Source: a virus (taxonomy: Duplodnaviria; Heunggongvirae; Uroviricota; Caudoviricetes). Taken from it: a stretch of DNA of 45,439 bases. The translations under genes were made by a program, and so were the position numbers. The stretch is taken from IMG/VR virus record IMGVR_UViG_2541047931_000012; one strand, written 5' to 3'. Below, piece after piece: positions 1 through 36,749 of this stretch (position 1 is the stretch's first letter; each line of letters starts with the position of its first letter). The notes under the pieces are model-generated. The model was not told where the DNA came from. It saw nothing but the letters and a program-made list of their open reading frames with translations, and searched no databases.

Positions 1-2370
1 GACGCTTCGCACGTAAAACCAGAAATCCGTCCCCGGCTTAATCCGGCTCCCCTGGACAGTCCACTGACTGCCGGTCCCCAGATAACGGGCAGATTTTTCC
101 ACCTGTGCCGTGTTCGTGATGCGTTTTTCTGAGAACCAGAATTCAAACTGTACCGTCGGGTCATACACCGCAAGACGCGGGACCGCCGTTATCTGAAAAT
201 ACCCCGGCGTCAGTTCAATGGTGGCGGGTTTTGCTGGCGCGTTAATCCGGAAGGTGGTGGTGGCCGGTTCGCCCTGCTGGCCATAACTGTTAATCGCCCT
301 GACCGTCAGGGTGTATTCCCCCAGTGGCAGGCCACTGAAACGGTGCTCCGTATCGGCAGTGATGGCGGTGGTCAGCAGTCTGGCATCCGTTCCCTTACCA
401 CTGGTCAGGCGCAGACTGAAGCGCACGCCCTTCACCACCCGCGGCGTGTCCCATTTAGCCTGCGCCAGATACTGGCCGTCAGCTGCGCTCACCTCCACCG
501 TCAGGTGCTGTACTGCCGGTGGGATAACGCTGTTCAGGGAGCCTGACTGCGGCTCAAAGCGGGCCCCGTTATCCACGATGGCTTCTTTTTCCGGTACGTG
601 CTGCACCGCCGTGATGGCAAAGGTGCCGTCCGTGTTTTCCCGGATGGAGACACAGCGGAACAGGCGACGGCGCAGTGACGGCAGGGAGAGTCCCCACACC
701 CCGTATGTCTCCACACCATCAGGCAGGGTACTGACCTGTATCCGGTCCGGCGCGGGGTGTTCGGTGATGTCCACACTCACCGGCTTACCACTGCCGTTAA
801 TCAGGTTCACCGTGGCGGCACCGGTCTCCGGAAGTGTCACTTCACGGTCCAGCGTCAGGGTGCGGGTGGCAGCATCAATGGACAGGACACGTCCGCCGGT
901 CAGGGTCCCGGCATAGTCGTTATCACAGATTTCAATGATGTCACCGGGTGTGTGCCGCAGCCCCTGAGACCCGAGCGTGAAATCCACCGTCTGCGTTTCC
1001 AGCAGTTCGGTCTTTATCACCCACAGTCCGGCACGGTGGGCCTGACCGCGGCTGGTACAGCCGAACGCGTCCATCTTCAGCAGGTTGCGTCCGTAGCGCA
1101 GTATGGCTTCCGGGTCTTCCACCAGTTCCGTGGAGGTCTGCCAGCCGTTCTGCGGGTCGGTGTAATTCACCTCCACCGCCGTGTGCCGGTCCTTCAGGGC
1201 ACTGAAGCTGTAGCGGAATCCCACGCCGTTATCATCCACCACCACATCGCTGTTGGTGTACGGCCACACCACATCCGACGGGCGGTCCTGAACGAACGTC
1301 AGCGTCTGACCGTTCCATACCGGCATACAGCGCATCGCAGAGCAGAAATCACTGAGAACGTCCCACGCCTTACGCTGTTGTGCCAGGTACGCATTAAAGG
1401 TCATCCGCGGCTCGGTCCCCCCGAAACCATCCGGGACCGTCTGGTCGCAGTACTGCCCGATGGCATACAGCGCCCACTTGTCCACATCCGCCGCCCCCAG
1501 ACGTTTTCCCATGCCGTAGCGCGGGTGAGTCAGCATGTCCCACAGACACCAGGCCGGATTGTTGCTGTATGCCGGTTTCAGACTGCCGTCCCAGATACCA
1601 CTGTACGTGCGTTTTTCCGGGTCATAGTTTGACGGCACCTGAATGATGCGACCGCGGATATGGTAGTTCACCGTCATCTGCTGGCCGCCGAACTGCTCCG
1701 CATCCACCTGCAGCCCCACAATGGCCGTGTTCGGGTAGCACTGTTTCACATCGATGATTTCAGTGTACGATGACCACAGCGTCCTGTTCTGCAACTGGTC
1801 CGTGGTGCTGTCCGCCGTCTCCCGGACCATCCGGATGTTAAAGGGCCGGGGCGGCAGATTATCCAGAATCACCGAGGCCAGGAACTGCGAGGTGGTCTTG
1901 CCGTTAATGGTGACATCCTTTTCCGTCACCCAGCGGCCATTACGCTGTAACTGAATCAGAATCCGGACAGAGGAAGGATTACGGTCGCCCTTTGACGTGG
2001 TCTGCACCAGTGACTGCACCCCGAAGGTAACCCGCAGGCGGTCAATGTTCGCGGACGTAATGGTGCGCGTCACCGGTTTTGCCTTCGTCACTTCCACGCC
2101 CAGTCCGGTTTCAGCTCCGGAGGACTCAAAGCCTTCCGGTGGTGTCTGCTCCTGCTCCCCGGCACGCCAGACCGCAGTCACACCGTGTATCACGGGATTA
2201 CCGTCCGTGTCCGTCAGCGGGGTTTTGTTCACCAGAATACTCTGCAGTCCCTTCACCGGACCTTCTATCGGTCCCTCACCAATCGCATCAATCACACTCA
2301 TCATCTGCGTGGATTTGAGATTATCCTTCGCCTCACGAGGCGTGTGTGCCTTACCGCCACCTTTTCCCAT
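1..2370 (-). CDS. J: Tail tip / host-specificity protein J, N-terminal ~790 codons; the 3' end lies beyond the window start
   Basis: Minus-strand translation from the ATG at 2368-2370 reads [38 protein letters not shown]..., which matches the lambda gpJ N-terminus from memory. The frame stays open to position 1 and the gene follows I as in lambda. Confidence 0.85.
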
Positions 2371-2713: not shown

Positions 2714-3394
2714 TTACCCCTGCCGCCCGATAACCACGACCTTTCCGCCCCCGCCTTCATCACGGGTGCTGATGTCCTGGGATATACGGCGGGAGCCAAC
2801 CAGCATTTCCCCGTAAGGCACCGGCATCGGGTTCCCCTGGGCAATCATGTTATCCAGCGAGGAAAAGTACGTGTTCTGTCTGCCGTTATCCGTTGCGCGG
2901 TAATCCGGTGTTTTTGCCTTCGGGGCCAGCATCTGGGCCACTCCGCCCAGTATCATGCTGGCACCCAGTGAAAACAGCATCGTGGTGGCAGAAAAACCAC
3001 CGGCACTCAGGGCTGTACCCCATAACGCCATCGAGCCTCCGGCCGTGAAGAAAGAGCCCACGATGGCTGCCGCCCCCAGCACAATCTGCAGTCCACCCTT
3101 TCCGGCCCCGGCCAGTCGCGGCACAATGTGGATGACCGTTCCCTCACCCAGCTGTTCGTGAAGACGGGCATACACCGCCTCCGGTGCCGTGTCATCACCG
3201 GCAATACGTATCTGGTACCAGCCTTCGTTCATCTGACGGCGAAAGCCCGGCATCTGCATCGACAGGGCGCGAATGGCTTCCGCTGCCGTGTTCACATACA
3301 GGCTGAGGCGGCGGCCAAATCGTTGCAAATCCCCGTGAAGGCAGATGCGTGCCAGTGGCGGTGACGCCAGACAGAATGCGTTCGTCGTTGCCAT
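2714..3394 (-). CDS. I: Tail assembly protein I
   Basis: 226-aa ORF in the lambda I position (lambda I is ~223 aa) with the same ~100-nt overlap with K as in lambda. Confidence 0.8.
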   Translation of the reverse strand: MATTNAFCLASPPLARICLHGDLQRFGRRLSLYVNTAAEAIRALSMQMPGFRRQMNEGWYQIRIAGDDTAPEAVYARLHEQLGEGTVIHIVPRLAGAGKGGLQIVLGAAAIVGSFFTAGGSMALWGTALSAGGFSATTMLFSLGASMILGGVAQMLAPKAKTPDYRATDNGRQNTYFSSLDNMIAQGNPMPVPYGEMLVGSRRISQDISTRDEGGGGKVVVIGRQG

Positions 3395-4035
3395 TTTTCG
3401 GAATACCTCTCCCGTTTACTCAGTTGTTCAGGCAGATGGTGAAGCAGCTCACCGTTGCCGCAGTAAATGGCGGCATGGTTCGGTACCGAAGCACCAAAGC
3501 AGCACAGCAGAATATCGCCCGCCTGTGCAGAGGACAGGGGCACCCGGTAAAAGCCGGTGACCGCCATATTGTCCAGGTAAAGGTTCTGACCGTTGCGCCA
3601 CCAGTCATCCTCGCGATGAAAATCCGGCATTTCAGTCCCCGCCAGATGGTATGCATCCCGGAACAGGGTGTAACAGTCCGTCACCCCGTGCTCAAAGCGC
3701 CGTCCCGTCAGGTGCGGCACGCAGCGGAATTTGTGAATGTCACCCCGGCAGACCAGCCACCAGGGCAGTGCGCTTTTTATCTGCAGCCGCCGGTCAGCCT
3801 CGCTCAGCCAGGGCAGCCCACCGGGATGACTGTGGACCAGTGCCACAATCTCCCCCTGCATCTCTGCCCGCAGCCAGTCTTCCGGTGCAATACGAAAATA
3901 CGCCTCCGGCTCTGCAGAGATATTCACACAAGGGATATACCGCTCCCCCTCCGGCGTTCTCACCACTAAGCCGCACGACTCCGCAGGCACACACCGCCGG
4001 GCATGCGCCAGAATCGCTGATTCTGTCTGTGTCAT
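3292..4035 (-). CDS. K: Tail assembly protein K
   Basis: ORF starts MTQTESAILAHARRC... and contains the HSHPGG motif, matching lambda gpK from memory; sits between L and I. Confidence 0.85.
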   Translation of the reverse strand: MTQTESAILAHARRCVPAESCGLVVRTPEGERYIPCVNISAEPEAYFRIAPEDWLRAEMQGEIVALVHSHPGGLPWLSEADRRLQIKSALPWWLVCRGDIHKFRCVPHLTGRRFEHGVTDCYTLFRDAYHLAGTEMPDFHREDDWWRNGQNLYLDNMAVTGFYRVPLSSAQAGDILLCCFGASVPNHAAIYCGNGELLHHLPEQLSKRERYSEKWQRRTHSVWRHRHWHASAFTGICNDLAAASACM

Positions 4036-4040
4036 TGGAT

Positions 4041-4738
4041 TTACTGCGAAAGTTTGTTAATGGAAAGGAAACCGCCAAAATTAGCCACCATGCCGCGCAT
4101 CTCACACCCGCGCATGCACTTGCTGCATCTGTCCTTACGGATATCCGTGGTGGGGTTGTCGAACTCATCCGCCACCGCAGGACCGTTATACCCGCATTCA
4201 TCTCCCCGGTAATCCCACATACAGGTGTTCGCCAGCATGATGCGACCGGGAAACAGCGCCCCGTCCGTCTCGGTCGGTGTGGCCAGCACAAACGAGGCCG
4301 TCATGGCTGTCAGCTGCGACATCTGCTCCACCACCCAGCGGTCACTCAGCTCCTGCTCCGGGTCCGCCTCCGGATTGCCCGCAACGAAATTCACCGCATC
4401 CAGAAAACGGGCATACACCCGGCGGCGGACCACCGTGGCCCCACCAGACTCTGCAGGTCTTCCGCCATCCCGGTGACCAGACCGAACAGATTGGACACCG
4501 TCAGCGACGGTCTGGCACTGCTGCCCCGGCCGTTCATCTCAAAGCCGCTGCCGTCAATCGGGTATGCCTCATACTTACGCCCCTGCCAGGTGACCGGCTC
4601 CCCTTTTTCATTCAGCTCATTACAGAAAAAATACCGCTCACCACCCTGTACCGTCAGGTCGATTTCCCAGAGTACCACCCGCGGTGACTGCTCTGACTTA
4701 ACCGACTCGTTCAGACTTTCTTCGCGAATATCCTGCAT
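4041..4738 (-). pseudogene. L: Minor tail protein L interrupted by a -1 frameshift in a G4 run (or a sequencing error)
   Basis: Two overlapping minus-strand ORFs (4391-4738 and 4041-4433) together reproduce lambda gpL (MQDIREESLNE...MAEDLQSLVG then ...VVRRRVYARFLDAVNFV...INKLSQ). The span is 698 nt rather than 699, and the frames switch at ctggtggggccacgg (plus-strand c-run 4439-4442). Confidence 0.6.
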
Positions 4739-5067
4739 CAGTTCACCACCTGCTTAAACTCCGCGCTGAACTCAACGCGCAACATCCCGACCCGCGCAGA
4801 CCACCCGGCACAGGTCACCTTTATCTGCCGGTATGCATAGGGTGGCTTCCACAAAAATGCCTTCCAGCCACCGTGCTCTGCCAGGAACGCTTCCAGATGC
4901 CGGGCCTCCTCCCGGGTCACGGAAAGCGTCACCCTGTATGTTTTCAGGTCAGCATTCAGCCCTGCCGCCATACGCTGTGAGTACCCGTCACCAAAACGCA
5001 CTTCACGCACCGATGGCTGCGAGTTCACCTCCATATCCGGCTTCACTTTCCAGCGAAAGGTTTTCAT
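4738..5067 (-). CDS. M: Minor tail protein M
   Basis: 109-aa ORF, same length and position as lambda M. Confidence 0.8.
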   Translation of the reverse strand: MKTFRWKVKPDMEVNSQPSVREVRFGDGYSQRMAAGLNADLKTYRVTLSVTREEARHLEAFLAEHGGWKAFLWKPPYAYRQIKVTCAGWSARVGMLRVEFSAEFKQVVN

Positions 5068-7625
5068 CCACCGCTCCCTGATAACATACCGCCATCACGC
5101 AACTGCAGCCGGAGTTCATCCTGTGCCCCCTTGCGGGCCATCTCATACACCGCTTTCATCAGCTGCGGCCCTGCCCGCCCGTTGGGGCCGTCGTTCTGAA
5201 TCACCACGTGATTGTTCTGATTAAAATTAATGCCTTCCGCCCGCCGCATCTGCGCCGGACTTCCGGCACCGCCGACATAACCACCTTCCGCATAGCCCCG
5301 CATCAGGCGGTACAGATTGCCGACACCAATCCGGCTGGTCGCCTCCTTCGTGAAGACAAACTCCCCGCGATGAACAATCCCCGCTGGTTCATATTTACCC
5401 CCCGTCCCCGTAAATCCCCCGGTCGCGAAATGGAAGTTCGCCGCCGCAGCCTGAATGGCCGTCCCCGTGGAGGCAGACGCACCACCACCGAAAGCACCGC
5501 CAATGGCGCTGCCGATACTCCCGACTATCCCCACCATCGCCTGCTTCAGAAAAATCTCTGTCAGCATGGACAGCACAGAACGGGTGAAACCACGCCAGTT
5601 CTGTTCGCTGCCGGTCAGCATCGCTGCCATATTCTGTGCAATACCGTCAAAGGTCTGCGTGGCAGCACTTTTTACCTGCGACATACTGTCCGTGGCACTC
5701 TCTTCCCACTCACTCCAGCCGGACCTGAGGCCTGCCATCCAGTTCCCGCGAAGCAGGTCTTCAGCCGCCCAGGTCTTTTTCTGCTCTGACATGACGTTAT
5801 TCAGCGCCAGCGGATTATCGCCATACTGTTCCTTCAGGCGCTGTTCCGTGGCTTCCCGTTCTGCCTGCCGGTCAGTCAGCCCCCGGCTTTTCGCATCAAT
5901 GGCGGCCCGTTTTGCCCGTTGCTGCTGTGCGAATTTATCCGCCTGCTGCGCCAGCGCGTTCAGGCGCTCCTGATACGTAACCTTGTCGCCAAGTGCAGCC
6001 AGCTGGCGTTTGTACTCCAGCGTCTCATCTTTATGCGCCAGCAGGGATTTCTCCTGTGCAGACAGCTGGCGACGTTGCGCCGCCTCCTCCAGTACCGCGA
6101 ACTGACTCTCCGCCTTCCACAAATCCCGGCGCTGCTGGCTGATTTTCTCATTCGCTCCGGCATGCTTCTCCAGCGTCCGGAGTTCTGCCTGAAGCGTCAG
6201 CAGGGCAGCATGAGCACTGTCTTCCTGACGATCGCCCGCAGACACCTTCACGCCGGACTGTTTCGGCTTTTTCAGCGTCGCTTCATAATCCTTTTTCGCC
6301 GCCGCCATCAGCGTGTTGTAATCCGCCTGCAGGATTTTCCCGTCTTTCAGTGCCTTGTTCAGTTCTTCCTGACGGGCGGTATATTTCTCCAGCGGCGTCT
6401 GCAGCCGTTCGTAAGCCTTCTGCGCCTCTTCGGTATATTTCAGCCGTGACGCTTCGGTATCGCTCTGCTGCTGCGCATTTTTGTCCTGTTGAGTCTGCTG
6501 CTCAGCCTTCTTTCGGGCGGCTTCAAGCGCAAGACGGGCCTTTTCACGATCATCCCAGTAACGCGCCCGCGCTTCATCGTTAACAAAATAATCATCCTTG
6601 CGCAGATTCCAGATGTCGTCTGCTTTCTTAAACGCAGCCTCTGCCTTAATCAGCATCTCCTGCGCGGTATCAGGACGACCAATATCCAGCACCGCATCCC
6701 ACATGGATTTGAATGCCCGCGCTGTCCTGTCTGCCCAGGTCTCCAGCGTGCCCATGTTCTCTTTCAGGCGGCGGGTCTGGTCATCAAACCCTTTCGTTGC
6801 GGCCTCGTTCGCCGCCTGCAATGCCCCGGTTTCATCGCCGGAACGCTGCAACTGAGCAACATACGCAATCTGCTCCGCCGTCACGTTATGGAACTGCTTC
6901 GCCATCGCAATCAGCCCCGACGTCGGGTCAGTGGTCAGTTTTCCGAAAGCCTCTGCAACCTTGTCCACCTCCACACCGGATGCAGACGCAAAACGCGCGA
7001 CACTCTGGTTGATGGCATCAAACTGTTCACCACCACGCACACCGGCATTCACCATGGCTGCCAGTGACTCACTCGCCTGGTTAAACGTCAGCCCTGCGGC
7101 CTGTCCGGCTCTGGAGAGCGTCAGCATGCGATCGGCAGTCAGTCCGGACTGATTACCGGAAAGAACCAGGGTTTTATTAAACGCTGAAAGCGTGGAATCT
7201 CCCTGGTACCAGGCGTACACCAGCGCACCTGTCGCCACCGCCAGCGAGGTGACCCCGACCATCGGCAGGGTGATCGCACCGGCAAGCCCCCTGAACATGG
7301 GGATCATCCCGCCGAAGGAGTCCTTCACCTGACCGCCCTGTTGCAGCAGGATCAGCCAGGGATTCTGACCACCGGCAAGCTGCGTGGCGATATCCGTAAA
7401 CTGTGCGGGCAGGGTTCGCATGGCCGCTTTATACTGCCCGACGGAAATCCCTGCTTTTTGTGCAGCCAGCGCCTGGCGGCTCAGGCCCTGTTCAACAGCA
7501 CTGGCGGTTTTTCTGGCGTCGGTATCCAGACCTGAAAAATGACGCCTTACCCGGCTCATCTGCTCATCGAAACGGACAGCATCCAGACTAAGGTCAATAA
7601 CAAGATCACCAACCGGCTGGGACAT
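5064..7625 (-). CDS. H: Tail tape measure protein H
   Basis: 853-aa ORF (lambda H is 853 aa) with a coiled-coil A/Q/E/K-rich middle and a glycine-rich C-terminus, between T and M. Confidence 0.9.
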   Translation of the reverse strand: MSQPVGDLVIDLSLDAVRFDEQMSRVRRHFSGLDTDARKTASAVEQGLSRQALAAQKAGISVGQYKAAMRTLPAQFTDIATQLAGGQNPWLILLQQGGQVKDSFGGMIPMFRGLAGAITLPMVGVTSLAVATGALVYAWYQGDSTLSAFNKTLVLSGNQSGLTADRMLTLSRAGQAAGLTFNQASESLAAMVNAGVRGGEQFDAINQSVARFASASGVEVDKVAEAFGKLTTDPTSGLIAMAKQFHNVTAEQIAYVAQLQRSGDETGALQAANEAATKGFDDQTRRLKENMGTLETWADRTARAFKSMWDAVLDIGRPDTAQEMLIKAEAAFKKADDIWNLRKDDYFVNDEARARYWDDREKARLALEAARKKAEQQTQQDKNAQQQSDTEASRLKYTEEAQKAYERLQTPLEKYTARQEELNKALKDGKILQADYNTLMAAAKKDYEATLKKPKQSGVKVSAGDRQEDSAHAALLTLQAELRTLEKHAGANEKISQQRRDLWKAESQFAVLEEAAQRRQLSAQEKSLLAHKDETLEYKRQLAALGDKVTYQERLNALAQQADKFAQQQRAKRAAIDAKSRGLTDRQAEREATEQRLKEQYGDNPLALNNVMSEQKKTWAAEDLLRGNWMAGLRSGWSEWEESATDSMSQVKSAATQTFDGIAQNMAAMLTGSEQNWRGFTRSVLSMLTEIFLKQAMVGIVGSIGSAIGGAFGGGASASTGTAIQAAAANFHFATGGFTGTGGKYEPAGIVHRGEFVFTKEATSRIGVGNLYRLMRGYAEGGYVGGAGSPAQMRRAEGINFNQNNHVVIQNDGPNGRAGPQLMKAVYEMARKGAQDELRLQLRDGGMLSGSGG

Positions 7626-8477
7626 ATCTCACACCTCCCGGAATCCCCGCTGAAGCCATCATTAATGCGGCATCATCCACCATGACATCCGCCACATCCG
7701 CAGACGATAAAATATCGCGCCCTCCGTCCCCACCGAATCGGACGCCTCCGGCAAGTCCTGCCGCTTTCTGCATCAGCATTTTGTCCTCATCCGGCCTCTC
7801 CACCTGCTCTTCCTCATGCCGGGGGACAAGCAGACTGAAATCAGAGGGATGCATATCCGGATCGCAAAAAAACAGGCTGAGTACAGCGTACGTCAGCCCG
7901 GAAAAATGCATATCCAGCTGGGTATCCTGAAAATAATGCGTGCGGTAAAAACGGTGCCAGTCGGCATATTCGGTGGATGTCATCCCGGCAAGCATGGCGC
8001 GCCAGTCGGGTCTCCCCATCTCACGCGCCAGTCTGAGGGCAAAGTTCAGCTCGCCGTCGAAGACTTTCCCGCAGAAAAATCATCATCAGTCAGCGTGTTA
8101 TTTTTCGCCACTTCAGTAATATCAGTATCCGGACGAACAGCTTCGATCATCCCGGACAGGCACAACACCACGTCTTCCGCCCGGGCAATGGCATCGGCAG
8201 GCCAGGTGGTGAGCACTTCCTGCTCTATCTTCATCACGGCCTCATTCATTGACGGTGACTGCGTTTTCTGTGGATGGTTATGCCACAGGGACATCGCCAC
8301 CAGAAACGCGCCGGTTCTGACAAGATCTTCCACACTCACCTGCAGGTTGCCGCTGGCTTCAGCCTCTTCTGCCCGCCGTTTCAGGAGGGCAAGATGCTCA
8401 ATACGCTGCAGCGCAGACAGCTCAGAAAGCGTGACGGATACACCGTTATATTCAAATTGTTCTGTTTTCAGGAACAT
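7606..8477 (-). CDS. T: Tail assembly chaperone G-T fusion, made by a programmed -1 frameshift from the G frame into the T frame
   Basis: The T frame (7606-8019) has no start of its own near the G end; after a -1 shift at the slippery site the reading continues GKVFDGELNFALRLAREMGRPDWRAMLAG..., as in lambda GT. Confidence 0.75.
8046..8477 (-). CDS. G: Tail assembly chaperone G
   Basis: 143-aa ORF ending ...DDDFSAGKSSTAS in the lambda G position upstream of T. Confidence 0.85.
   Translation of the reverse strand: MFLKTEQFEYNGVSVTLSELSALQRIEHLALLKRRAEEAEASGNLQVSVEDLVRTGAFLVAMSLWHNHPQKTQSPSMNEAVMKIEQEVLTTWPADAIARAEDVVLCLSGMIEAVRPDTDITEVAKNNTLTDDDFSAGKSSTAS
8064..8070 (-). other. Slippery heptamer G GGA AAG for the G to G-T -1 ribosomal frameshift
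   Basis: Minus-strand gggaaag (plus-strand ctttccc at 8064-8070) lies 6 codons before the G stop, the same heptamer as in lambda. Confidence 0.75.
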
Positions 8478-15774: not shown

Positions 15775-17686
15775 TCACTCCTCCGGACAGCTTCGCTGCC
15801 AGTTCTTTAAGGGTTGGCCGGGTCGTCTCTTCTTCCCGGGATTTTGCCAGTACAGCCAGATCAAGCTGCCAGCGTTGCACGGACACACGTAATGCCGCGT
15901 AGGCATACACCAGGCAGTCCAGCGCTTCGTTACGCCGCTTTTTGTTATCCCACAGCAGACGCATCTTTCCTTTTTCCCACTTCTCCACAAGCTCTTCCGC
16001 CACCAGTTGCTGCGCCTCTGTCTGCGAAAAAATCTCCGGATCATCAGGAAAACGGATGGCATACGACGTGGCTTCATCCGCAGGCGTGGGATCGGCTTTC
16101 ATACGGGCATAGAGAATTTCTTTTGCGGTGTCCGTCCCCACTTCGCACAGATACACGCCCCGCTGATTGCGGGTTTTTGGCATGGTGATCACCGGCTTGC
16201 CATAAACAGATGCACCTTTTACCGGCAGCACCCGGAAAACACCGTGTTTTTTTGACCTCTGATAGACAATTTCGCCATCGATCCCCCCGGTGTCCCAGCA
16301 GACACGGGAAATGGTCATTTCGGTTCCGTCTGCATGGCGGTATTTTTTGTTGATCGCCACATCCACACGTAACAGCGTCTCTTCCTCATCGGGACGCCCC
16401 ATAATGATGATTTTATCCACCAGAAAGGCTTCCTCTCCCGGAGCCCATCCCCAGACATACATCTCAAAACGGTTTCGCTGCGAGTCAATGCCCGCCGTCA
16501 GATAAACCACCCGGGAAGGCACCGCAGCCGTGTAACGCACAACCTTATCCATCAGCACCTGGTGATCGAGTTTTTCGCCCACGGCCTCTTCCCAGGTCTC
16601 GCCCAGCGTGGTGTTCACAAAGGTTTTCAGGCCGTTGGGATCTTTCAGTGCATCCAGCCAGTCATAGACAATCTGTACCCAGGTGGTGAACGGACTGTAC
16701 GCCGTCCAGATATGGAATGTGATGGAGCGCGGCGGCGGAATTTCATTATCCGCGGCGCTGAAAAACGTCAGACCGTCGCGGGTCCACATCCCCGTGTTTT
16801 CACAGATCCACCGCCCGTTGCTCTGGTCAAGCTCAGACTGATGGATCACGCAGCCATGATGTTCACAGAGGTAGAAAACGCTTTCGGGGCTGTCCTTCTC
16901 CCATTTAAGGCCAAAAGGCGTGGACTCATCGCCAAATTTCAGATACTGCGCCTCCCCACAGTGCGGGCAGGGCACATAAAAACGCATGAAATGCGCCGAC
17001 TCGTTGGCCGCTTTTTCGATCTGGCAGGTGCCTTTGATTTTAGGCGTCGAGCCGCGAATGGATTTGGGCCATACAGAGCCCTCAATACGTTTATCCCCAA
17101 GCAGGGTTGGCGAACCCTCTTTTTCGACATCCGGTTCGAACGAGGAAAGTTCGTCATAGCAGACCACGTCCACGGATTTTTCACGGTAGTTTTTGGCGGC
17201 AGCGCCGCCCAGGCACCAGAAGCCCACACCCGATGAAAAGCGTTTCAGCGTGAGAGTATTGTCACGATGTTTACGCCCCAGCCATGGAGAAAGGTCTTTC
17301 AGACATGGCACATCCCGAATCGTCGCCTCCACGTGAGACTTCATAAAATCTTCAGCGGCAGAATCCGTGGGCTGAAAAAGCAGACTGTTTCGGGATTTAT
17401 GCTCAATAAAATACCCGACCACCCCCAGCAACATCTTTGTATAGCCAACACGGGCAGATTTAATCAGATTAACAGTCCGGATCTGATCATTCCCCATGCT
17501 GTTCATGATGGCGATCTGGAACGGCAGCGTTTTCCATTCTCCCTCACCATATGAAGATTCTTTAGGCAGATAATAATTTTGATCAGCCCATTCAACTGGC
17601 GTCACCGGCAATGCCCTTATCAGGGGCTGTAATGCTGTTGTGACAGCACTCATCATATTATTCAGTTGTTGCTCTGATATATTCAT
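15758..17686 (-). CDS. A: Terminase large subunit A
   Basis: Starts MNISEQQLNN... and shares long lambda gpA motifs (GYDELSSF, EGSPTLLGDKRIEGSVWPKSIRGSTPK, FHIWTAYSPFTTWVQIV, WDNKKRRNEALDC) from memory; the listed ORF start at 17743 is probably too far upstream. Confidence 0.9.
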   Translation of the reverse strand: MNISEQQLNNMMSAVTTALQPLIRALPVTPVEWADQNYYLPKESSYGEGEWKTLPFQIAIMNSMGNDQIRTVNLIKSARVGYTKMLLGVVGYFIEHKSRNSLLFQPTDSAAEDFMKSHVEATIRDVPCLKDLSPWLGRKHRDNTLTLKRFSSGVGFWCLGGAAAKNYREKSVDVVCYDELSSFEPDVEKEGSPTLLGDKRIEGSVWPKSIRGSTPKIKGTCQIEKAANESAHFMRFYVPCPHCGEAQYLKFGDESTPFGLKWEKDSPESVFYLCEHHGCVIHQSELDQSNGRWICENTGMWTRDGLTFFSAADNEIPPPRSITFHIWTAYSPFTTWVQIVYDWLDALKDPNGLKTFVNTTLGETWEEAVGEKLDHQVLMDKVVRYTAAVPSRVVYLTAGIDSQRNRFEMYVWGWAPGEEAFLVDKIIIMGRPDEEETLLRVDVAINKKYRHADGTEMTISRVCWDTGGIDGEIVYQRSKKHGVFRVLPVKGASVYGKPVITMPKTRNQRGVYLCEVGTDTAKEILYARMKADPTPADEATSYAIRFPDDPEIFSQTEAQQLVAEELVEKWEKGKMRLLWDNKKRRNEALDCLVYAYAALRVSVQRWQLDLAVLAKSREEETTRPTLKELAAKLSGGVNGYSR

Positions 17687-18167
17687 CGAGTAAATCCGGT
17701 AATTTATCCCCCGCCCGCGCACACTGATTTGCCCCCTTCGCAATAAGGGTTTTCAGATGGTCAAGATGGCGCGGTGTTAAATCAGGAAACTGTCGCTGCA
17801 TGGATAAAGGGATGGAATCAAGCGTACTGGATAACGCCATTGCCAGCTTGCTGAGGGCAAAAATACAGAACCCGGTGTCAATAAGTTTTCCTTTTGACAC
17901 CTCATTTTTTAACTGCTGTGTAACAGCCTGTTCTGCTGTCAGTTCCCATCTGGCAATAAGCAATTTCTCCTCATAGTCGTCTTCGCTATCGCCATCAGGC
18001 ACATCGTTTTTACTTCTTCTCAGATACGATATGTAAAAATCGCGCCAGGCATCCAGATCCAGTTGCCCTCGCTTATTCGATATCGGGGCACCCGGCAATT
18101 TCTGCAATCTGCGAAGCTGGCGATCGGTCAGACTTAAATGCCTGGCAACTTCAGTCTGCGTAGCCAC
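17658..18167 (-). CDS. Nu1: Terminase small subunit (Nu1-like) with an N-terminal HTH that differs from lambda Nu1
   Basis: 169-aa ORF directly upstream of and overlapping A, next to cos; its N-terminus (MATQTEVARHLSLTDRQLRRL...) differs from lambda Nu1 as I recall it. Confidence 0.75.
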   Translation of the reverse strand: MATQTEVARHLSLTDRQLRRLQKLPGAPISNKRGQLDLDAWRDFYISYLRRSKNDVPDGDSEDDYEEKLLIARWELTAEQAVTQQLKNEVSKGKLIDTGFCIFALSKLAMALSSTLDSIPLSMQRQFPDLTPRHLDHLKTLIAKGANQCARAGDKLPDLLDEYIRATTE

Positions 18168-18208
18168 TCCTCACCTCGCAAAAAACTCTCACCTCACAAT
18201 CACAACAA

Positions 18209-18315
18209 AACCGGTCATGTCCGGTTTTAGTGTCTATTTTTTGCGCATGTCCGGTTCATGGAAAGCATGTTTTTATATTTTTCATATGGTTAACTTGCAG
18301 AGAAACCGGACATGG
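18209..18315. repeat. cosB-like region with three copies of CATGTCCGG (two direct, one inverted), candidate terminase small-subunit binding sites
   Basis: catgtccgg at 18216-18224 and 18246-18254, and ccggacatg at 18306-18314, lying between Nu1 and cosN. Confidence 0.5.
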
Positions 18316-18339
18316 ATCCCGGAAAATTTTCATAAATAG

Positions 18340-28606: not shown

Positions 28607-29221
28607 CTAACGTTGTTTAATAACATTCTGACGCAAATGTGGCAATACTCGACTCCACTTATCATCCTGCCACGGCTGGAATTTTACATGTGCCGTTTCT
28701 CTGGCGAGGATTGCTCGCGCTCTGGTGAGTATCTGGGGATATTCTTGCTCGATGGAAGTGAAGCGACCAGCTTCACGATGCTCCGCAACCTGAAGAAGAG
28801 GAGTAACGTTCTGGCAGGCGGTTAACATCGCATCCCCAGCTCGCCATAACCAAGCAAGTGTGCAAAGTTCGTTATCAGTGAATTGTTTTGTGATCGGGGA
28901 TTGTTGAACTTCTCGATCGAGAATATCCAGAACCCAGCGGCGGAACTCTTTGGCTACAGGAGTTCGTGCAAACATGGCGATCAAATGGGCTCCGCGAAGG
29001 CTAAATACTCGAGACTCCTGCATTCCACGAGGGGTGGTCACTTTGACCACCCTTGTCATCATATCTGTAAATTCATCTGAGTGACGAGAGTAAATGCGCT
29101 GAACTGCTTTATCGTCCGCATATTCCAGAGCTAAACCAACTTCAGTGGCAGTAAGCCAAATTCTGTTATTGTGGCAAATTGGGGTAAACGTCGTTTTGTG
29201 GAATGCTAATTGAGTAGTCAT
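28607..29221 (-). CDS. Bro-N domain protein (putative antirepressor)
   Basis: 204-aa ORF whose N-terminus (AFHKTTFTPICHNNRIWLTATEVGLALEYADDKAVQRIYSRHSDEF) fits Bro-N. Confidence 0.55.
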   Translation of the reverse strand: MTTQLAFHKTTFTPICHNNRIWLTATEVGLALEYADDKAVQRIYSRHSDEFTDMMTRVVKVTTPRGMQESRVFSLRGAHLIAMFARTPVAKEFRRWVLDILDREVQQSPITKQFTDNELCTLAWLWRAGDAMLTACQNVTPLLQVAEHREAGRFTSIEQEYPQILTRARAILARETAHVKFQPWQDDKWSRVLPHLRQNVIKQR

Positions 29222-29832: not shown

Positions 29833-31728
29833 TTAATTATTTTTCTTTAACTTGAAATTTCTTCCCATTGCTAGTGTTCTTCGAAGATTCGAATCATAAG
29901 CTGGTTGATAATATCTATCATAAAAATCCTTAATTGTCTGATGGTAAGTATCCAGCATCAAACCATAAAACCCCATGACCTTAAGATAATCCACCAAGGG
30001 AAATAAATAATCATCAGTCTGAACATCAGTATCAATATTATTTTTTTGTTTTTTAACTTCAAATTTGTATAAGTTTAACTCACCCTTATCCATCGTGCAT
30101 GAAAAAAGGTCGTCAAAAATCAAATCAATTTTTGTCATAGGAACTCGTTCTTTTCCAGACATTATAGGTAGAATATCAATACCTAAGAGCGAACCTAATA
30201 CAAAGTCGTAATGAAGCGAAATCACTGAGTCATTCGATGTCGAGTTGCCTTTGATAAATACTCTACTTAGTGCCGAGTCAAAAACATTCTCAACTCTCTC
30301 TCTCGTCATGTTTGCGACATCTACAACCCCCATATCACGAGAAGCTTTTATTGTGATTTCATCTATAAATGCTTTGGAATCTAGTGAATGTAAAAACAAC
30401 ATGAAGTTATCTAACTGTTCAGAGCATTTAATAGCCACCATAAGATTTTCGTATATATCTTTTTTATACTCAATCGGTAAATTTGCTACCGCAAAAGCAG
30501 CATAAAATTCTTGCACTGATTTATGCAGAAAAACATACCTATTATTTCCCTCAGGTTGGATAAGGCAAGTTATCTCAATAAGATCATCTATAAAGTTTGA
30601 TGCATCTTCTTTAAGATAACCTTCTGTTTCAATAGCATCTTCAGCATATCTAAGCAACTCCTCTCCCCAAAACTCAAATTTCTCCTCAATCAGTGCGTTA
30701 TAGCAAATAGCTGAAAAACACAATTTAGCTTTTTCACCAATAATGTTTGATTTTTTCTCGCGCGTATATACTTTTATTTTATCATGCCTTGCATATAAGG
30801 TGTCAAAGAGGCTTCGATAAAACTCTATTATATTATTTGGAATATCATTCATATAAGGATAACAATAATACAAAAGAGTAACTAAAATTGGATTGCAAAT
30901 AGTTCCCTCAAGTTCTTCTTTATCACATAGTAAATCCGCCAAGACTTTAAACGAGGCATCACTACTTGAGAATCTGTCATTTTTCGATAAAGAATGAAGA
31001 ATACAAATCTTATCAGAAATATTTAGCTTATCTATAAAAATATTATACACATCAGTAGTATAACATATATCTGTATTTGGTCTCGTTGTTGCGATAATTG
31101 GTGTGTTAAAATGATAATGAATGTTTTTTATTTCATTCATCATCATAGTTCGCTCTTCATGTTTAACCTCATCAAATCCATCCAACATTAAAACGACTCT
31201 TTGGGATTGCAGTAATATTTTCAAGCTATCCTCTGAACACCCCACACCAAATGAATTAAGAATGTCTGCCAGATAAGCAATAATATTTGCATTCTTCACC
31301 CTTCTTAATTCAATAAAAAAAGGCATCCGTTCTGATTTTTTTATTTCCTCGCTAAACAACTTGCGTAAAATAGTACTTTTCCCTTGCCCCGCTATACCGA
31401 CTATATTTACAATACCATGAAATGGTAAAGTGACCCCATCTTTTATAACGACCTTGTCTTTATTAGATGCCACCTCAACAGTTAACGGATAATAAATATC
31501 ATCTAAAAAAATATCATAATCAGCGTTGTGCAAAGTTCTCATTTTCAGAGATGGTAGCACATGCTTTCTTAAATAATTTTCTCTTCCGAGGGGATCATTT
31601 AATTGTTCGAGTATAACCTTGCCTTCATCTAGGTCCCTAGCCCAAGGTTTAGAGAGCAATACTTCTGTTATTTTTTCCGCAGCTTTTCCTACTGTGCTAT
31701 TAATAATAGTCGCAAGAAACTCATCCAT
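29833..31728 (-). CDS. NACHT-type STAND P-loop NTPase, candidate bacterial NLR-like anti-phage protein
   Basis: Walker A GIAGQGKST, NACHT-style Walker B VVLMLDGFDEV and IIATTRP motif; short N-terminal domain and ~300-aa C-terminal region; AT-rich. The likely start is ATG at 31728 (MDEFLATI..., RBS ggtga). Confidence 0.7.
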   Translation of the reverse strand: MDEFLATIINSTVGKAAEKITEVLLSKPWARDLDEGKVILEQLNDPLGRENYLRKHVLPSLKMRTLHNADYDIFLDDIYYPLTVEVASNKDKVVIKDGVTLPFHGIVNIVGIAGQGKSTILRKLFSEEIKKSERMPFFIELRRVKNANIIAYLADILNSFGVGCSEDSLKILLQSQRVVLMLDGFDEVKHEERTMMMNEIKNIHYHFNTPIIATTRPNTDICYTTDVYNIFIDKLNISDKICILHSLSKNDRFSSSDASFKVLADLLCDKEELEGTICNPILVTLLYYCYPYMNDIPNNIIEFYRSLFDTLYARHDKIKVYTREKKSNIIGEKAKLCFSAICYNALIEEKFEFWGEELLRYAEDAIETEGYLKEDASNFIDDLIEITCLIQPEGNNRYVFLHKSVQEFYAAFAVANLPIEYKKDIYENLMVAIKCSEQLDNFMLFLHSLDSKAFIDEITIKASRDMGVVDVANMTRERVENVFDSALSRVFIKGNSTSNDSVISLHYDFVLGSLLGIDILPIMSGKERVPMTKIDLIFDDLFSCTMDKGELNLYKFEVKKQKNNIDTDVQTDDYLFPLVDYLKVMGFYGLMLDTYHQTIKDFYDRYYQPAYDSNLRRTLAMGRNFKLKKNN

Positions 31729-31763
31729 TTTTTCACCACATTCATTAACCAATACGTGGTGCA

Positions 31764-31792
31764 TTCTTACAAGACTCAGTAACAATTGTCAA
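31764..31792 (-). promoter_or_regulatory. Candidate promoter for the NACHT gene (TTGACA - 17 nt - TAAGAA)
   Basis: Minus-strand perfect -35 ttgaca (plus 31787-31792) with a weak -10. Confidence 0.35.
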
Positions 31793-34878: not shown

Positions 34879-34905
34879 TTGACCATCAATACGCAAGCGT
34901 ATAAA
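34879..34905 (+). promoter_or_regulatory. PRM-like promoter (TTGACC - 15 nt - TATAAA) giving a near-leaderless cI transcript
   Basis: The -10 ends 9 nt before the cI ATG at 34915 and there is no Shine-Dalgarno. Confidence 0.35.
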
Positions 34906-34914
34906 TTAAAACTT

Positions 34915-35607
34915 ATGAAAAAAGAAACTCTTGCTGATCGCTTAAACCTAGCGATGGAACAATCTGGAATGTCTCAAGGCGCTCTTGCAAAGGCGTCTGG
35001 CGTAGCTCAACCCACAATCTGGAGACTGACAAGCGGCAACGCTCGCGGCTCAACAAAAATTGTTGAAATAGCTAATGCATTGGGTGTTCGAACAGAATGG
35101 CTCTCATCAGGCATAGGCCCGATGAGAAATGACGGTCAACAATCAGGGAAGCCTGCTGTCAGCCATTCAAAATACTTCAAAATTGACGTTCTTGATATAG
35201 AAGTCAGTGCCGGGCCGGGAGTCATCAACCGTGAGTTTGTAGAAGTTCTACGCTCGGTTGAGTACTCGTTTGACGATGCTCGTCACATGTTCGATGGTAG
35301 GAAGGCAGAAAATATCCGCATCATTAACGTACGCGGTGACAGCATGTCAGGAACGATCGAACCAGGTGATCTTCTGTTCGTTGATATCACGGTTAAATCT
35401 TTCGACGGTGATGGTATCTATGCGTTTCTGTATGACGACACAGCCCATGTAAAGCGCCTGCAAATGATGAAGGATAAGCTGCTAGTTATCTCTGATAACA
35501 AGAGCTACTCACCGTGGGACCCGATCGAGAAAGACGAGATGAACCGGGTATTCATCTTCGGGAAAGTCATCGGAAGCATGCCGCAGACGTATAGGAAGCA
35601 TGGGTAG
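34915..35607 (+). CDS. cI: CI-like repressor (HTH plus S24 LexA-type autopeptidase domain)
   Basis: HTH MSQGALAKASGVAQPTIWRL and S24 motifs VRGDSMSGTI ... HVKRL; start taken at ATG 34915 (the listed ORF begins at TTG 34879). Confidence 0.8.
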   Translation: MKKETLADRLNLAMEQSGMSQGALAKASGVAQPTIWRLTSGNARGSTKIVEIANALGVRTEWLSSGIGPMRNDGQQSGKPAVSHSKYFKIDVLDIEVSAGPGVINREFVEVLRSVEYSFDDARHMFDGRKAENIRIINVRGDSMSGTIEPGDLLFVDITVKSFDGDGIYAFLYDDTAHVKRLQMMKDKLLVISDNKSYSPWDPIEKDEMNRVFIFGKVIGSMPQTYRKHG

Positions 35608-35718: not shown

Positions 35719-35733
35719 TTACCATAATGGTAA
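35719..35733. promoter_or_regulatory. Perfect palindrome TTACCAT-A-ATGGTAA overlapping the first ATG of the toxin gene; candidate antitoxin operator
   Basis: Read directly at 35719-35733. Confidence 0.4.
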
Positions 35734-36137
35734 CAAGTATGATTCTTAGCAGATATGTGGGAACTCCTCCCCGTGATGGCGAGGACAGAAAGATTCAAGG
35801 TGGTCCGCTTTATTTAGATATCATTGATTTGATTGATGAATGTGACACACTGCCTTGGACTAGACGGTGTATCAGGGATGTTCAATCGCTTTCTTTAGAT
35901 GCAGATGACATCAAATCTATGGTGATAAAAGCAGTCACTAAAGGGAGATTTCTAGGTTCAGAATGGTGTCAAGGCAGTAAACCAGGTGTATGGGCAGCTT
36001 GTGATGCTTATAGCTTTGAGCACTCATTTTGGTGCCAAGCTATGCATAAAGAACTTAATAACGAGTTCTACATTAAATTTTTTGTAAACATTACTGGCAA
36101 TGTAGTGCTTACAGTATCTCTTCATCTCTCTAATTGA
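35727..36137 (+). CDS. MqsR-like toxin of a toxin-antitoxin-chaperone operon
   Basis: C-terminal region (...DAYSFEHSFW...EFYIKFFVNITGNVVLTVSLH) resembles MqsR (...YLKITVIHDVLIVSF) from memory; toxin-first order as in mqsRA. The start could be 35727 or 35739. Confidence 0.5.
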   Translation: MVTSMILSRYVGTPPRDGEDRKIQGGPLYLDIIDLIDECDTLPWTRRCIRDVQSLSLDADDIKSMVIKAVTKGRFLGSEWCQGSKPGVWAACDAYSFEHSFWCQAMHKELNNEFYIKFFVNITGNVVLTVSLHLSN

Positions 36138-36161
36138 GTGATGATAAATGAGGATTTTTAT

Positions 36162-36749
36162 ATGAGAAACAACAACATATGTCCAGTTTGTGGTGTAGGT
36201 CATCTCACCGTGGAGATGGAGTATGATGATGTTACTTATAAAGGGGAAACAAAAAATCTCCCAATAAGGTTTTCTGTGTGTGATCAATGTGGTTCGGAAA
36301 CTGCCACACCAGTCGATTTACGAGAAAACAAACGAATTTTCAATGAATACAAAAAGTCTATCGATGGACTTTTAACAGGAAAAGAATTAAAAAAAATTAG
36401 AACTGAAGTATGGATGATAACCCAGCAAAAGGCATCCTCTATATTTGGTGGGGGGCCTAAGGCATTTTCCAAGTATGAATCTGATGATGTCATTCAATCA
36501 GAAGCAATGGATAAACTGATGCGTTTAGCAGCAGAAGTTCCTGATGCATTCAAAAGGTTACGGGAATTATCTGGCGAAATCAAAGTTGAAAGAACAGTCT
36601 CATCATCTAAATCTTTACCTATATGGAAATCTGAAGCAAAAGCACAATTTGAAAACGATGATCAGGGATTTGACAGCAAATCACCAGCCCAAACAAAAAT
36701 GAATCAAACATCAATAAAGATAAAAACTGTTGCTAAGCGGGTAGCATGA
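36162..36749 (+). CDS. MqsA-like antitoxin (zinc ribbon plus HTH) with a ~70-aa C-terminal extension
   Basis: CPVCGVGHL...CDQCGSE zinc ribbon and SIFGGGPKAFSKYE matching the MqsA EIFGGGVNAFSRYE motif; RBS gagga before ATG 36162. Confidence 0.7.
   Translation: MRNNNICPVCGVGHLTVEMEYDDVTYKGETKNLPIRFSVCDQCGSETATPVDLRENKRIFNEYKKSIDGLLTGKELKKIRTEVWMITQQKASSIFGGGPKAFSKYESDDVIQSEAMDKLMRLAAEVPDAFKRLRELSGEIKVERTVSSSKSLPIWKSEAKAQFENDDQGFDSKSPAQTKMNQTSIKIKTVAKRVA

What the first reader, a model, noticed from the sequence alone, without database searches (positions are those of the whole stretch)
4391..4445. Tail gene L is split by a -1 frameshift in a G4 homopolymer
The two ORF fragments jointly reproduce lambda gpL, but the span is 698 nt and the frame changes at ctggtggggccacgg, where one more G would restore ...LVGATVVRRRVYARF.... 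Either the prophage cannot make an intact L and is tail-defective, or this is a homopolymer sequencing error. All other late genes look intact.
Basis: seen in the sequence. Interest (0 to 1): 0.45.

Follow-up and report, generated by a model that had tools for sequence, protein, structure and literature searches.

The report
One-base deletion splits prophage tail gene L
A lambda-like prophage of a clinical E. coli strain has its tail-tip gene L broken by the loss of one G from a run of five; this is an ordinary pseudogene lesion (or, less likely, an assembly error) that recurs at the same spot in other E. coli prophages.

Summary
On the minus strand, gene L (4041..4738, 698 nt) is split into a 115-aa ORF (100 native residues plus 15 out of frame) and a 130-aa ORF (residues 103-232). 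The break is a GGGG tract at 4439-4442. Adding one G gives a 699-nt gene identical base for base to intact L genes of E. coli clone D i14 and N1, and 76% identical end to end to lambda gpL.

The window is the end of scaffold KE702256.1 of E. coli UMEA 3271-1. Across about 34 kb that aligns closely to relatives, this is the only indel. The assembly therefore shows no general homopolymer-error signature.

The same G5-to-G4 lesion occurs at 81 places in 46 complete genomes, against 4941 places with G5, and PGAP calls the three I checked "frameshifted". Among fetched loci it sits on seven allele backgrounds, four of them identical or one SNP from an intact allele. The tract is a recurrent indel hot spot. 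Some instances lie in visibly noisy assemblies, so technical under-calling also happens there.

There is no sign of programmed recoding. Best reading (about 0.7): a real, strain-private deletion that makes the prophage tail-defective unless complemented. Sequencing error is about 0.25. The finding is ordinary and of low interest.

The parts
4041..4738 (-). Gene L (lambda gpL homologue, tail-tip hub protein). It is 698 nt instead of 699 and is interrupted by a frameshift.
   Evidence: ORFs. Repair and identity to intact L of clone D i14. PF05100. Lambda gpL structure match.
4391..4738 (-). N-terminal fragment ORF of 115 aa: residues 1-100 of gpL plus 15 out-of-frame residues (PRWSAAGCMPVFWMR), ending at TGA 4391-4393.
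   Evidence: This is protein ERB27464.1 of E. coli UMEA 3271-1.
4041..4433 (-). C-terminal fragment ORF of 130 aa, from a GTG at 4433, covering gpL residues 103-232. It includes all conserved Cys ligands of the [4Fe-4S] site (C173, C182, C205, C212).
   Evidence: This is protein ERB27463.1. The Cys roles are taken from PMC10721106.
4439..4442 (-). GGGG tract (CCCC on the + strand). This is the site of the one-base deletion; intact alleles have GGGGG.
   Evidence: Pairwise and multiple alignments.
4393..4538 (-). Stretch of 48 codons in which both reading frames are open. A -1 ribosomal slip anywhere here would give a full-length product, and a slip on G_GGG would give the exact wild-type sequence.
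   Evidence: for the frame analysis. The consequence is inference.
4738..5067 (-). Gene M (distal tail protein), intact, immediately upstream of L.
   Evidence: synteny with lambda.
3292..4035 (-). Gene K (JAB/NlpC-P60, C40 peptidase), intact, immediately downstream of L.

Best explanation
Gene L of an otherwise complete lambdoid prophage of E. coli UMEA 3271-1 carries a genuine one-base deletion in a G5 tract (G5 to G4, window 4439-4442, codons 99-101). Replication slippage on the short homopolymer is the likely cause; this is inferred. Translation runs out of frame after Gly100 and stops 15 codons later. The product lacks the rest of the N-terminal beta-sandwich (HDI) domain and the whole C-terminal iron-sulfur domain. 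gpL forms a trimer with gpJ in the last ring of the lambda tail tip and is needed to start tail assembly (established lambda genetics, recalled rather than tested here). The prophage on its own should therefore make DNA-filled heads but few or no functional tails after induction. It should give infectious particles only if an L protein is supplied by a co-resident lambdoid prophage, by recombination, or by rare -1 slippage. The lesion is strain-private and recent: apart from the missing G, the gene is identical to intact alleles.
For: Repairing one G gives DNA identical to intact L (WP_001327694.1) of clone D i14 and N1. The window matches scaffold KE702256.1 of UMEA 3271-1 at 100%. It is the only indel in 25 kb against the N1 prophage (69 substitutions, 1 indel), and there are no gaps in a further 8.9-kb block at 99.2% identity to the N25 prophage. 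The assembly is therefore not prone to homopolymer errors. All other genes examined are intact and carry full Pfam domains. The same G5-to-G4 change is found at 81 places in 46 complete genomes. The three fetched (O26 RM8426, E2863 and O111:H- 11128) are flagged 'frameshifted' at 698 nt by PGAP. 45 of the 46 share the same two-mismatch 46-mer, and the strain names suggest several laboratories. G4 alleles among fetched loci sit on seven allele backgrounds, and four of them have an identical or one-SNP G5 counterpart. An independent Logan assembly, ERR9845699, carries G4 in a 1663-nt contig with 2 SNPs and no other indel. The break falls inside the HDI domain (residues 1-166), and the Fe-S ligands all lie downstream of it.
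Against: No reads were available, so a consensus under-call of the G5 run cannot be excluded. No complete E. coli genome carries this exact 46-mer, so the allele is a singleton on its haplotype. Two other carriers of the identical truncated protein come from visibly noisy assemblies: CP121673.1, with about 40 gap openings per aligned block, and ERR10498123, with two further homopolymer deletions in H. Technical G5-to-G4 calls therefore do occur at this site. The site lies 4.4 kb from a scaffold end in a repeat-prone prophage region. The phenotype was not tested.
Confidence: 0.7

Rival explanations
1. This is a sequencing or assembly artefact. The strain really has GGGGG and an intact L gene, and the draft consensus dropped one G.
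For: The lesion is a single-base change in homopolymer length, which is the classic error type. The allele is unique on its haplotype among 5,426 complete genomes. The identical truncated product also appears in two assemblies with many other homopolymer or indel errors (L005 and L007). The site is near a scaffold end in a region typically repeated among prophages.
Against: There is no other indel in about 34 kb aligned at 99% identity or more to relatives, and no other broken gene in the window. A run of five is short for consensus errors at normal coverage. I recall that the UMEA assemblies are Illumina-based, but I did not verify this here. The same lesion exists in O111-type prophages of 45 complete genomes, seemingly from several laboratories, so a real event at this site is not unusual.
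Confidence: 0.25
2. This is recoding. The G4 allele is expressed as full-length gpL by ribosomal -1 frameshifting, with P-site tRNA-Gly slipping on G_GGG, or by transcriptional slippage. The gene would then be functional as it stands.
For: A -1 slip on GU[G GGG] re-pairs perfectly and gives ...SLVG-ATVV..., the exact wild-type sequence (inference). Non-programmed suppression of one-base deletions at 1-10% overall has been measured in E. coli, including in lambda cI (PMC10861913). Only three gpL copies are needed per virion.
Against: G_GGN tetramers were not among the shift-prone motifs in E. coli, and tetramers without a stimulator gave about 0.15% (PMC4066793). The downstream RNA shows no exceptional structure (z=-0.41). 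About 98% of alleles with the same flanks are in-frame G5. The window allele is otherwise identical to an intact allele, so nothing has co-evolved with the shift. The genuine programmed G-T frameshift of this prophage uses the canonical GGGAAAG heptamer. At best this is leakiness and not a programmed mechanism.
Confidence: 0.03
3. This is a functional split gene. The two fragments are made separately, the second initiating at GTG 4433 behind the SD-like GGUGGGG, and they assemble into a working gpL.
For: A GTG start lies 5 nt downstream of the G-rich tract. A similar G-tract was proposed to act as a weak SD in a reporter (PMC4066793).
Against: [quoted passage not shown] No lineage shows signs of adapting to the split. 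PGAP treats such alleles as pseudogenes.
Confidence: 0.02

Closest known systems
Bacteriophage lambda gpL (tail tip hub protein L; Pfam PF05100; PDB 8iyk chain L)
   Same: The repaired product is 232 aa and aligns 1-232 without gaps at 76% identity. It has the same conserved cysteines (C173, C182, C205, C208, C212) and the same H-M-L-K-I-J gene order.
   Different: The reading frame is broken after residue 100. Lambda itself reads GTC GGC GGA ACG here and has no G5 tract, so the hot spot belongs to the GTG GGG GCC allele family.
Frameshifted L pseudogenes of lambdoid prophages in EHEC O111 (e.g. strain 11128, ECO111_RS04325; strain E2863) and O26 RM8426 (I3M_RS09495)
   Same: They share the same G5-to-G4 loss at the same codon and the same 698-nt length, and are annotated 'frameshifted' by PGAP.
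   Different: They sit on different L haplotypes, 18 and 41 mismatches from the window gene, and in different prophages and hosts. The O111-type allele is shared by 45 complete genomes, whereas the window allele is private.
Defective lambdoid prophage pool of E. coli O157 Sakai (Asadulghani et al. 2009, PMC2669165)
   Same: These are otherwise complete lambdoid prophages with small lesions in morphogenesis genes. The defects can be complemented by co-resident prophages.
   Different: Whether UMEA 3271-1 holds a helper prophage with an intact L was not testable here.
Lambda G-T programmed -1 frameshift
   Same: It also involves a -1 frame relationship between two adjacent tail-gene ORFs, and it is present in this same prophage (GGGAAAG at 8064-8070).
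   Different: G-T uses a conserved slippery heptamer and is conserved in all relatives. The L shift has no slippery heptamer and no stimulator, and it is absent from about 98% of alleles.

Membership tests
Lambda gpL / Phage_tail_L (PF05100) | Significant match to the family profile above the curated cut-off | tested here: met
   Repaired protein scores 306 bits (cut-off 25). The N fragment scores 102 bits on profile positions 3-74 and the C fragment 185 bits on positions 75-206.
Lambda gpL / Phage_tail_L (PF05100) | End-to-end collinearity with lambda gpL of solved structure | tested here: met
   Repaired product aligns 1-232 to 8iyk_L 1-232, E=1.6e-124, no gaps; 177 of 232 residues identical.
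Lambda gpL / Phage_tail_L (PF05100) | Conserved cysteines that coordinate the [4Fe-4S] cluster (C173, C182, C205, C212) | tested here: met
The ligand assignment comes from PMC10721106. Cluster binding itself was not tested.
Lambda gpL / Phage_tail_L (PF05100) | Position in the tail-tip gene cluster H-M-L-K-I-J | tested here: met
   The window order on the minus strand is H 5064-7625, M 4738-5067, L, K 3292-4035, I 2714-3295, then J, which matches lambda.
Lambda gpL / Phage_tail_L (PF05100) | Uninterrupted ORF of about 232 codons, i.e. a functional gene rather than a pseudogene | tested here: not met
   The gene is 698 nt with a frame change at 4439-4442 and a premature TGA at 4391-4393.
Programmed -1 ribosomal frameshift site | Efficient slippery motif (X_XXY_YYZ heptamer or a shift-prone Z_ZZN tetramer) | tested here: not met
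   The sequence is G_GUG_GGG_C, which is only a G_GGG tetramer. G_GGN is not among the shift-prone tetramers in E. coli (PMC4066793).
Programmed -1 ribosomal frameshift site | Downstream stimulatory RNA structure or upstream SD-like stimulator at functional spacing | tested here: not met
   The fold of the 77 nt from the site has MFE -31.7 against a shuffle mean of -30.3, z=-0.41.
Programmed -1 ribosomal frameshift site | Conservation of the two-frame arrangement among homologues | tested here: not met
   There are 4941 in-frame G5 places against 81 G4 places in complete E. coli genomes.
Homopolymer sequencing or assembly error | Other homopolymer-length discrepancies nearby relative to close relatives | tested here: not met
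   There are no other indels in 25 kb against N1 or in 8.9 kb against N25. The noisy carriers L005 and L007 do show such discrepancies.
Homopolymer sequencing or assembly error | Reads disagree with the consensus at the site | not testable with these tools

The most novel reading that the evidence does not exclude
The GTG-GGG-GCC tract of this L allele family is a recurrent indel hot spot that repeatedly produces L-null lambdoid prophages. The G4 alleles would not be fully null, because a -1 slip of tRNA-Gly on G_GGG (or slippage elsewhere in the 48-codon dual-open stretch) regenerates wild-type or near wild-type gpL. Only three copies are needed per virion, so such 'defective' prophages could keep a low but real capacity to make infectious particles.
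Probability: 0.1. Interest if true: 0.3.

Novelty: already known. Interest (0 to 1): 0.12.

Why it matters
It matters mostly for annotation and for predicting phenotype. This 45-kb prophage of a clinical E. coli isolate looks complete, but it carries one lesion in an essential tail gene. Prophage-intactness predictors would probably call it intact, while induction may release non-infectious heads. The recurrence of the same G5-to-G4 change in unrelated prophages shows two things. The site is a small mutational hot spot, and it is also a place where noisy assemblies under-call. A frameshifted L at this position should therefore be checked against reads before being read as biology. It opens no new biological question.

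Tried and rejected
(1) My first discriminating BLAST query (window 4395-4440) was mis-centred. It held only two of the four Gs, so it matched both alleles. I discarded it and repeated the search with 4418-4463 and with the G5 47-mer.

(2) I considered programmed frameshifting and rejected it. There is no slippery heptamer, no exceptional downstream structure, no conservation of the shift, and G_GGN is not shift-prone in the literature.

(3) I looked for a general homopolymer-error signature in the assembly and found none.

(4) I used the identical truncated product in other assemblies as independent confirmation, but this helped only partly. L005 and L007 come from noisy data. Only L008 is clean, and its sequencing platform is unknown.

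(5) The PADLOC scan of the NACHT-domain ORF and its neighbours gave nothing significant.

(6) I tried to read Tam et al. 2013 (PMC4061613) for gpL genetics, but the paper is not held. The requirement of L for tail assembly therefore rests on textbook lambda genetics, recalled from memory.

(7) I did not run the metagenome or genome-contig scans, the large protein searches or structure prediction. The question did not need them.

Full report
**What is in the sequence**

The tail genes lie on the minus strand. Two overlapping ORFs sit between M (4738..5067) and K (3292..4035): 4391..4738 (115 aa) and 4041..4433 (130 aa). Together they span 4041..4738, which is 698 nt. The second ORF is in the -1 frame relative to the first.

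The first ORF matches Pfam PF05100 (Phage_tail_L) profile positions 3-74. The second matches positions 75-206, so the two matches are exactly contiguous.

The frames change at a GGGG tract at 4439-4442, inside the motif ctggtggggccacgg at 4433-4447. Adding one G gives a 699-nt ORF. Its product aligns 1-232 with lambda gpL (PDB 8iyk_L, E=1.6e-124, no gaps, 177 of 232 residues identical). Its DNA is identical base for base to the intact L gene (WP_001327694.1) of E. coli clone D i14; E. coli N1 differs from the window L only by the same missing base.

**Where the window comes from**

The exact 115-aa product is on record as ERB27464.1, and the 130-aa product as ERB27463.1. Both are named 'phage minor tail protein L' of E. 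coli UMEA 3271-1.

The encoding scaffold KE702256.1 (GCA_000461115.1) is 100% identical to the window over 14,738 nt and ends at the window's first bases. The window is thus the end of a draft scaffold. Gene J, which starts near 2370 on the minus strand, is cut by the scaffold end and not by biology.

**State of the rest of the prophage**

Window 1-25000 aligned to its closest complete-genome relative, the E. coli N1 prophage, shows 69 substitutions and exactly one indel, which is this one. The substitutions cluster in J and near the lysis genes.

All late genes from Nu1 to I that reach 90 aa match the annotated CDS coordinates of N1; W and the holin are shorter and were not listed.

The early half encodes the following:
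- an integrase and Bet/Exo recombination genes
- an S24 repressor
- replication proteins O and P
- NinB, RusA and the antiterminator Q

An 8.9-kb block aligns to the E. coli N25 prophage at 99.2% identity with no gaps.

So the element is a complete-looking lambdoid prophage with a single lesion. The assembly shows no general homopolymer-error signature.

**How common is the lesion?**

A 46-mer centred on the G4 tract has no perfect match in 5,426 complete E. coli genomes. It does match 81 places in 46 genomes with one or two SNPs and no gap.

I fetched three of these: O26 RM8426, E2863 and O111:H- 11128. In each, PGAP annotates a 698-nt 'phage minor tail protein L, frameshifted' pseudogene, and RM8426 and E2863 were read to have the same GGGG.

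The G5 47-mer matches 4941 places in 1776 genomes, so about 1.6% of such alleles carry G4.

I then compared 121 L genes from fetched loci with the G-run removed. The G4 alleles fall on seven allele backgrounds. For four of them a G5 allele in the set is identical or one SNP away:
- window: 0 differences from L001 and L004
- L008: 0 differences from five G5 loci
- L002: 0 differences from L015
- L013: 1 difference from L030

The most economical reading is several independent G5-to-G4 events.

In the repaired gene this tract is the only G/C run of five or more. Lambda itself reads GTC GGC GGA at this point and has no such run.

**Real mutation or technical error?**

Both occur at this site.

The O111-type allele is shared by 45 complete genomes whose strain names suggest several laboratories, and it is surely real.

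Two other carriers of the identical truncated protein are technically suspect. CP121673.1 has about 40 gap openings per aligned block, and its phage genes are shredded into fragments. Logan contig ERR10498123 has two further homopolymer deletions in H.

Logan contig ERR9845699 is clean, with 2 SNPs and no other indel in 1663 nt, but its sequencing platform is unknown.

For UMEA 3271-1 itself the local evidence favours a real deletion: one indel in about 34 kb of closely aligned sequence and no other broken gene. Only reads can settle it. I put a real deletion at about 0.7 and an artefact at about 0.25.

**Consequence and mechanism**

These steps are inferred, not tested here.

Translation proceeds normally to Gly100, reads 15 foreign residues (PRWSAAGCMPVFWMR) and stops at TGA 4391-4393.

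According to the lambda virion structure, gpL has an N-terminal HDI beta-sandwich (residues 1-166). [quoted passage not shown] The break lies inside the first domain, and all the cluster ligands lie downstream of it.

In lambda, L is required for formation of the tail initiator. This is textbook genetics recalled from memory and not verified here. The prophage alone should therefore yield filled heads without functional tails.

Three things could soften this:
- Co-resident lambdoid prophages can supply morphogenetic proteins in trans (PMC2669165). L homologues occur at a median of two places per E. coli genome that has any.
- Recombination with such a copy could repair the gene.
- Ribosomal -1 slippage could restore the frame. 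A P-site tRNA-Gly slip on GU[G GGG] re-pairs perfectly and gives the exact wild-type sequence, and both frames are open over 48 codons.

Non-programmed suppression of one-base deletions has been measured at 1-10% overall in E. coli (PMC10861913). However, tetramers without a stimulator gave about 0.15% on average, and the G_GGN motifs were not among the shift-prone ones (PMC4066793). The downstream RNA is also unremarkable (z=-0.41). This would be leakiness at best and not a programmed mechanism.

The prophage's genuine programmed frameshift, G-T, has its canonical GGGAAAG heptamer at 8064-8070.

**Comparison with what is known, and verdict**

The gene is a member of the gpL/PF05100 family by sequence, by conserved cysteines and by synteny. 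It fails only the requirement of an uninterrupted ORF, so it is an L pseudogene.

The same kind of lesion, at the same nucleotide, is already annotated as 'frameshifted' in public genomes. Small morphogenesis defects in otherwise complete lambdoid prophages are well documented.

The finding is real and correctly read by the first stage, but it is ordinary. Its value is practical. It is a caution for calls of prophage intactness, and it flags a site where indels recur both biologically and technically.

Noticed in passing
window 8064-8070 (-), with G 8046..8477 and T 7606..8019: The canonical lambda G-T slippery heptamer GGGAAAG lies near the 3' end of G, with the T ORF following. This is the genuine programmed -1 frameshift of the tail chaperone genes, and it is intact here.
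   Followed up: partly
window 25535-25784 (-): Three tRNA genes sit in a row downstream of the Q antiterminator (26255..26650) and upstream of the SASA-family esterase (23081..25042): Arg(tct), Arg(tcg) and Met(cat), the last possibly an Ile2-type. This is the tRNA cluster typical of Stx-like lambdoid phages.
   Followed up: no
window 29833..31785 (-): A 650-aa ORF with a NACHT/NB-ARC-type NTPase domain lies in the nin region, between replication gene P and a Bro-N/P22_AR antirepressor-like ORF (28607..29221). It could be a prophage-borne defence gene, but it had no PADLOC hit.
   Followed up: partly
window 35727..37249 (+): Next to the S24 repressor (34879..35607) lie a small unknown ORF, an MqsA-antitoxin-domain ORF (36138..36749) and an ORF annotated SecB-like in the N25 relative (36746..37249). 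Together they look like a toxin-antitoxin-chaperone-like cassette in the immunity region.
   Followed up: no
window 1..2370 (-); scaffold KE702256.1 end: Gene J runs off the window because the draft scaffold ends inside it. Such breaks usually mark repeats, which hints at a second lambdoid prophage with a similar J in the same strain that could supply an intact L. This was not testable here.
   Followed up: partly
IMG/VR loci L010, L011, L012 (genome 2531839449); complete-genome hits: Some genomes carry the G4 L allele in two to four different prophage copies: three contigs of one IMG genome, and up to 4 places per genome in the complete-genome set. This suggests that the pseudo-allele spreads between co-resident prophages by recombination, or that it arises repeatedly.
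   Followed up: partly
fetched loci: Among 110 L genes retrieved with the in-frame G5 pattern, 3 have lengths of 698 or 700 nt, so they carry frameshifts elsewhere in L. One G4 allele (L014) is 700 nt. L pseudogenes are therefore not confined to the G5 tract.
   Followed up: no
L136 (E. coli N25) 16935..18321; window 44153..45439: The related N25 prophage is integrated next to mlrA (yehV), with an integrase region about 95% identical in DNA to the window's. The window ends exactly at the integrase stop codon, so the attachment site was not visible.
   Followed up: no
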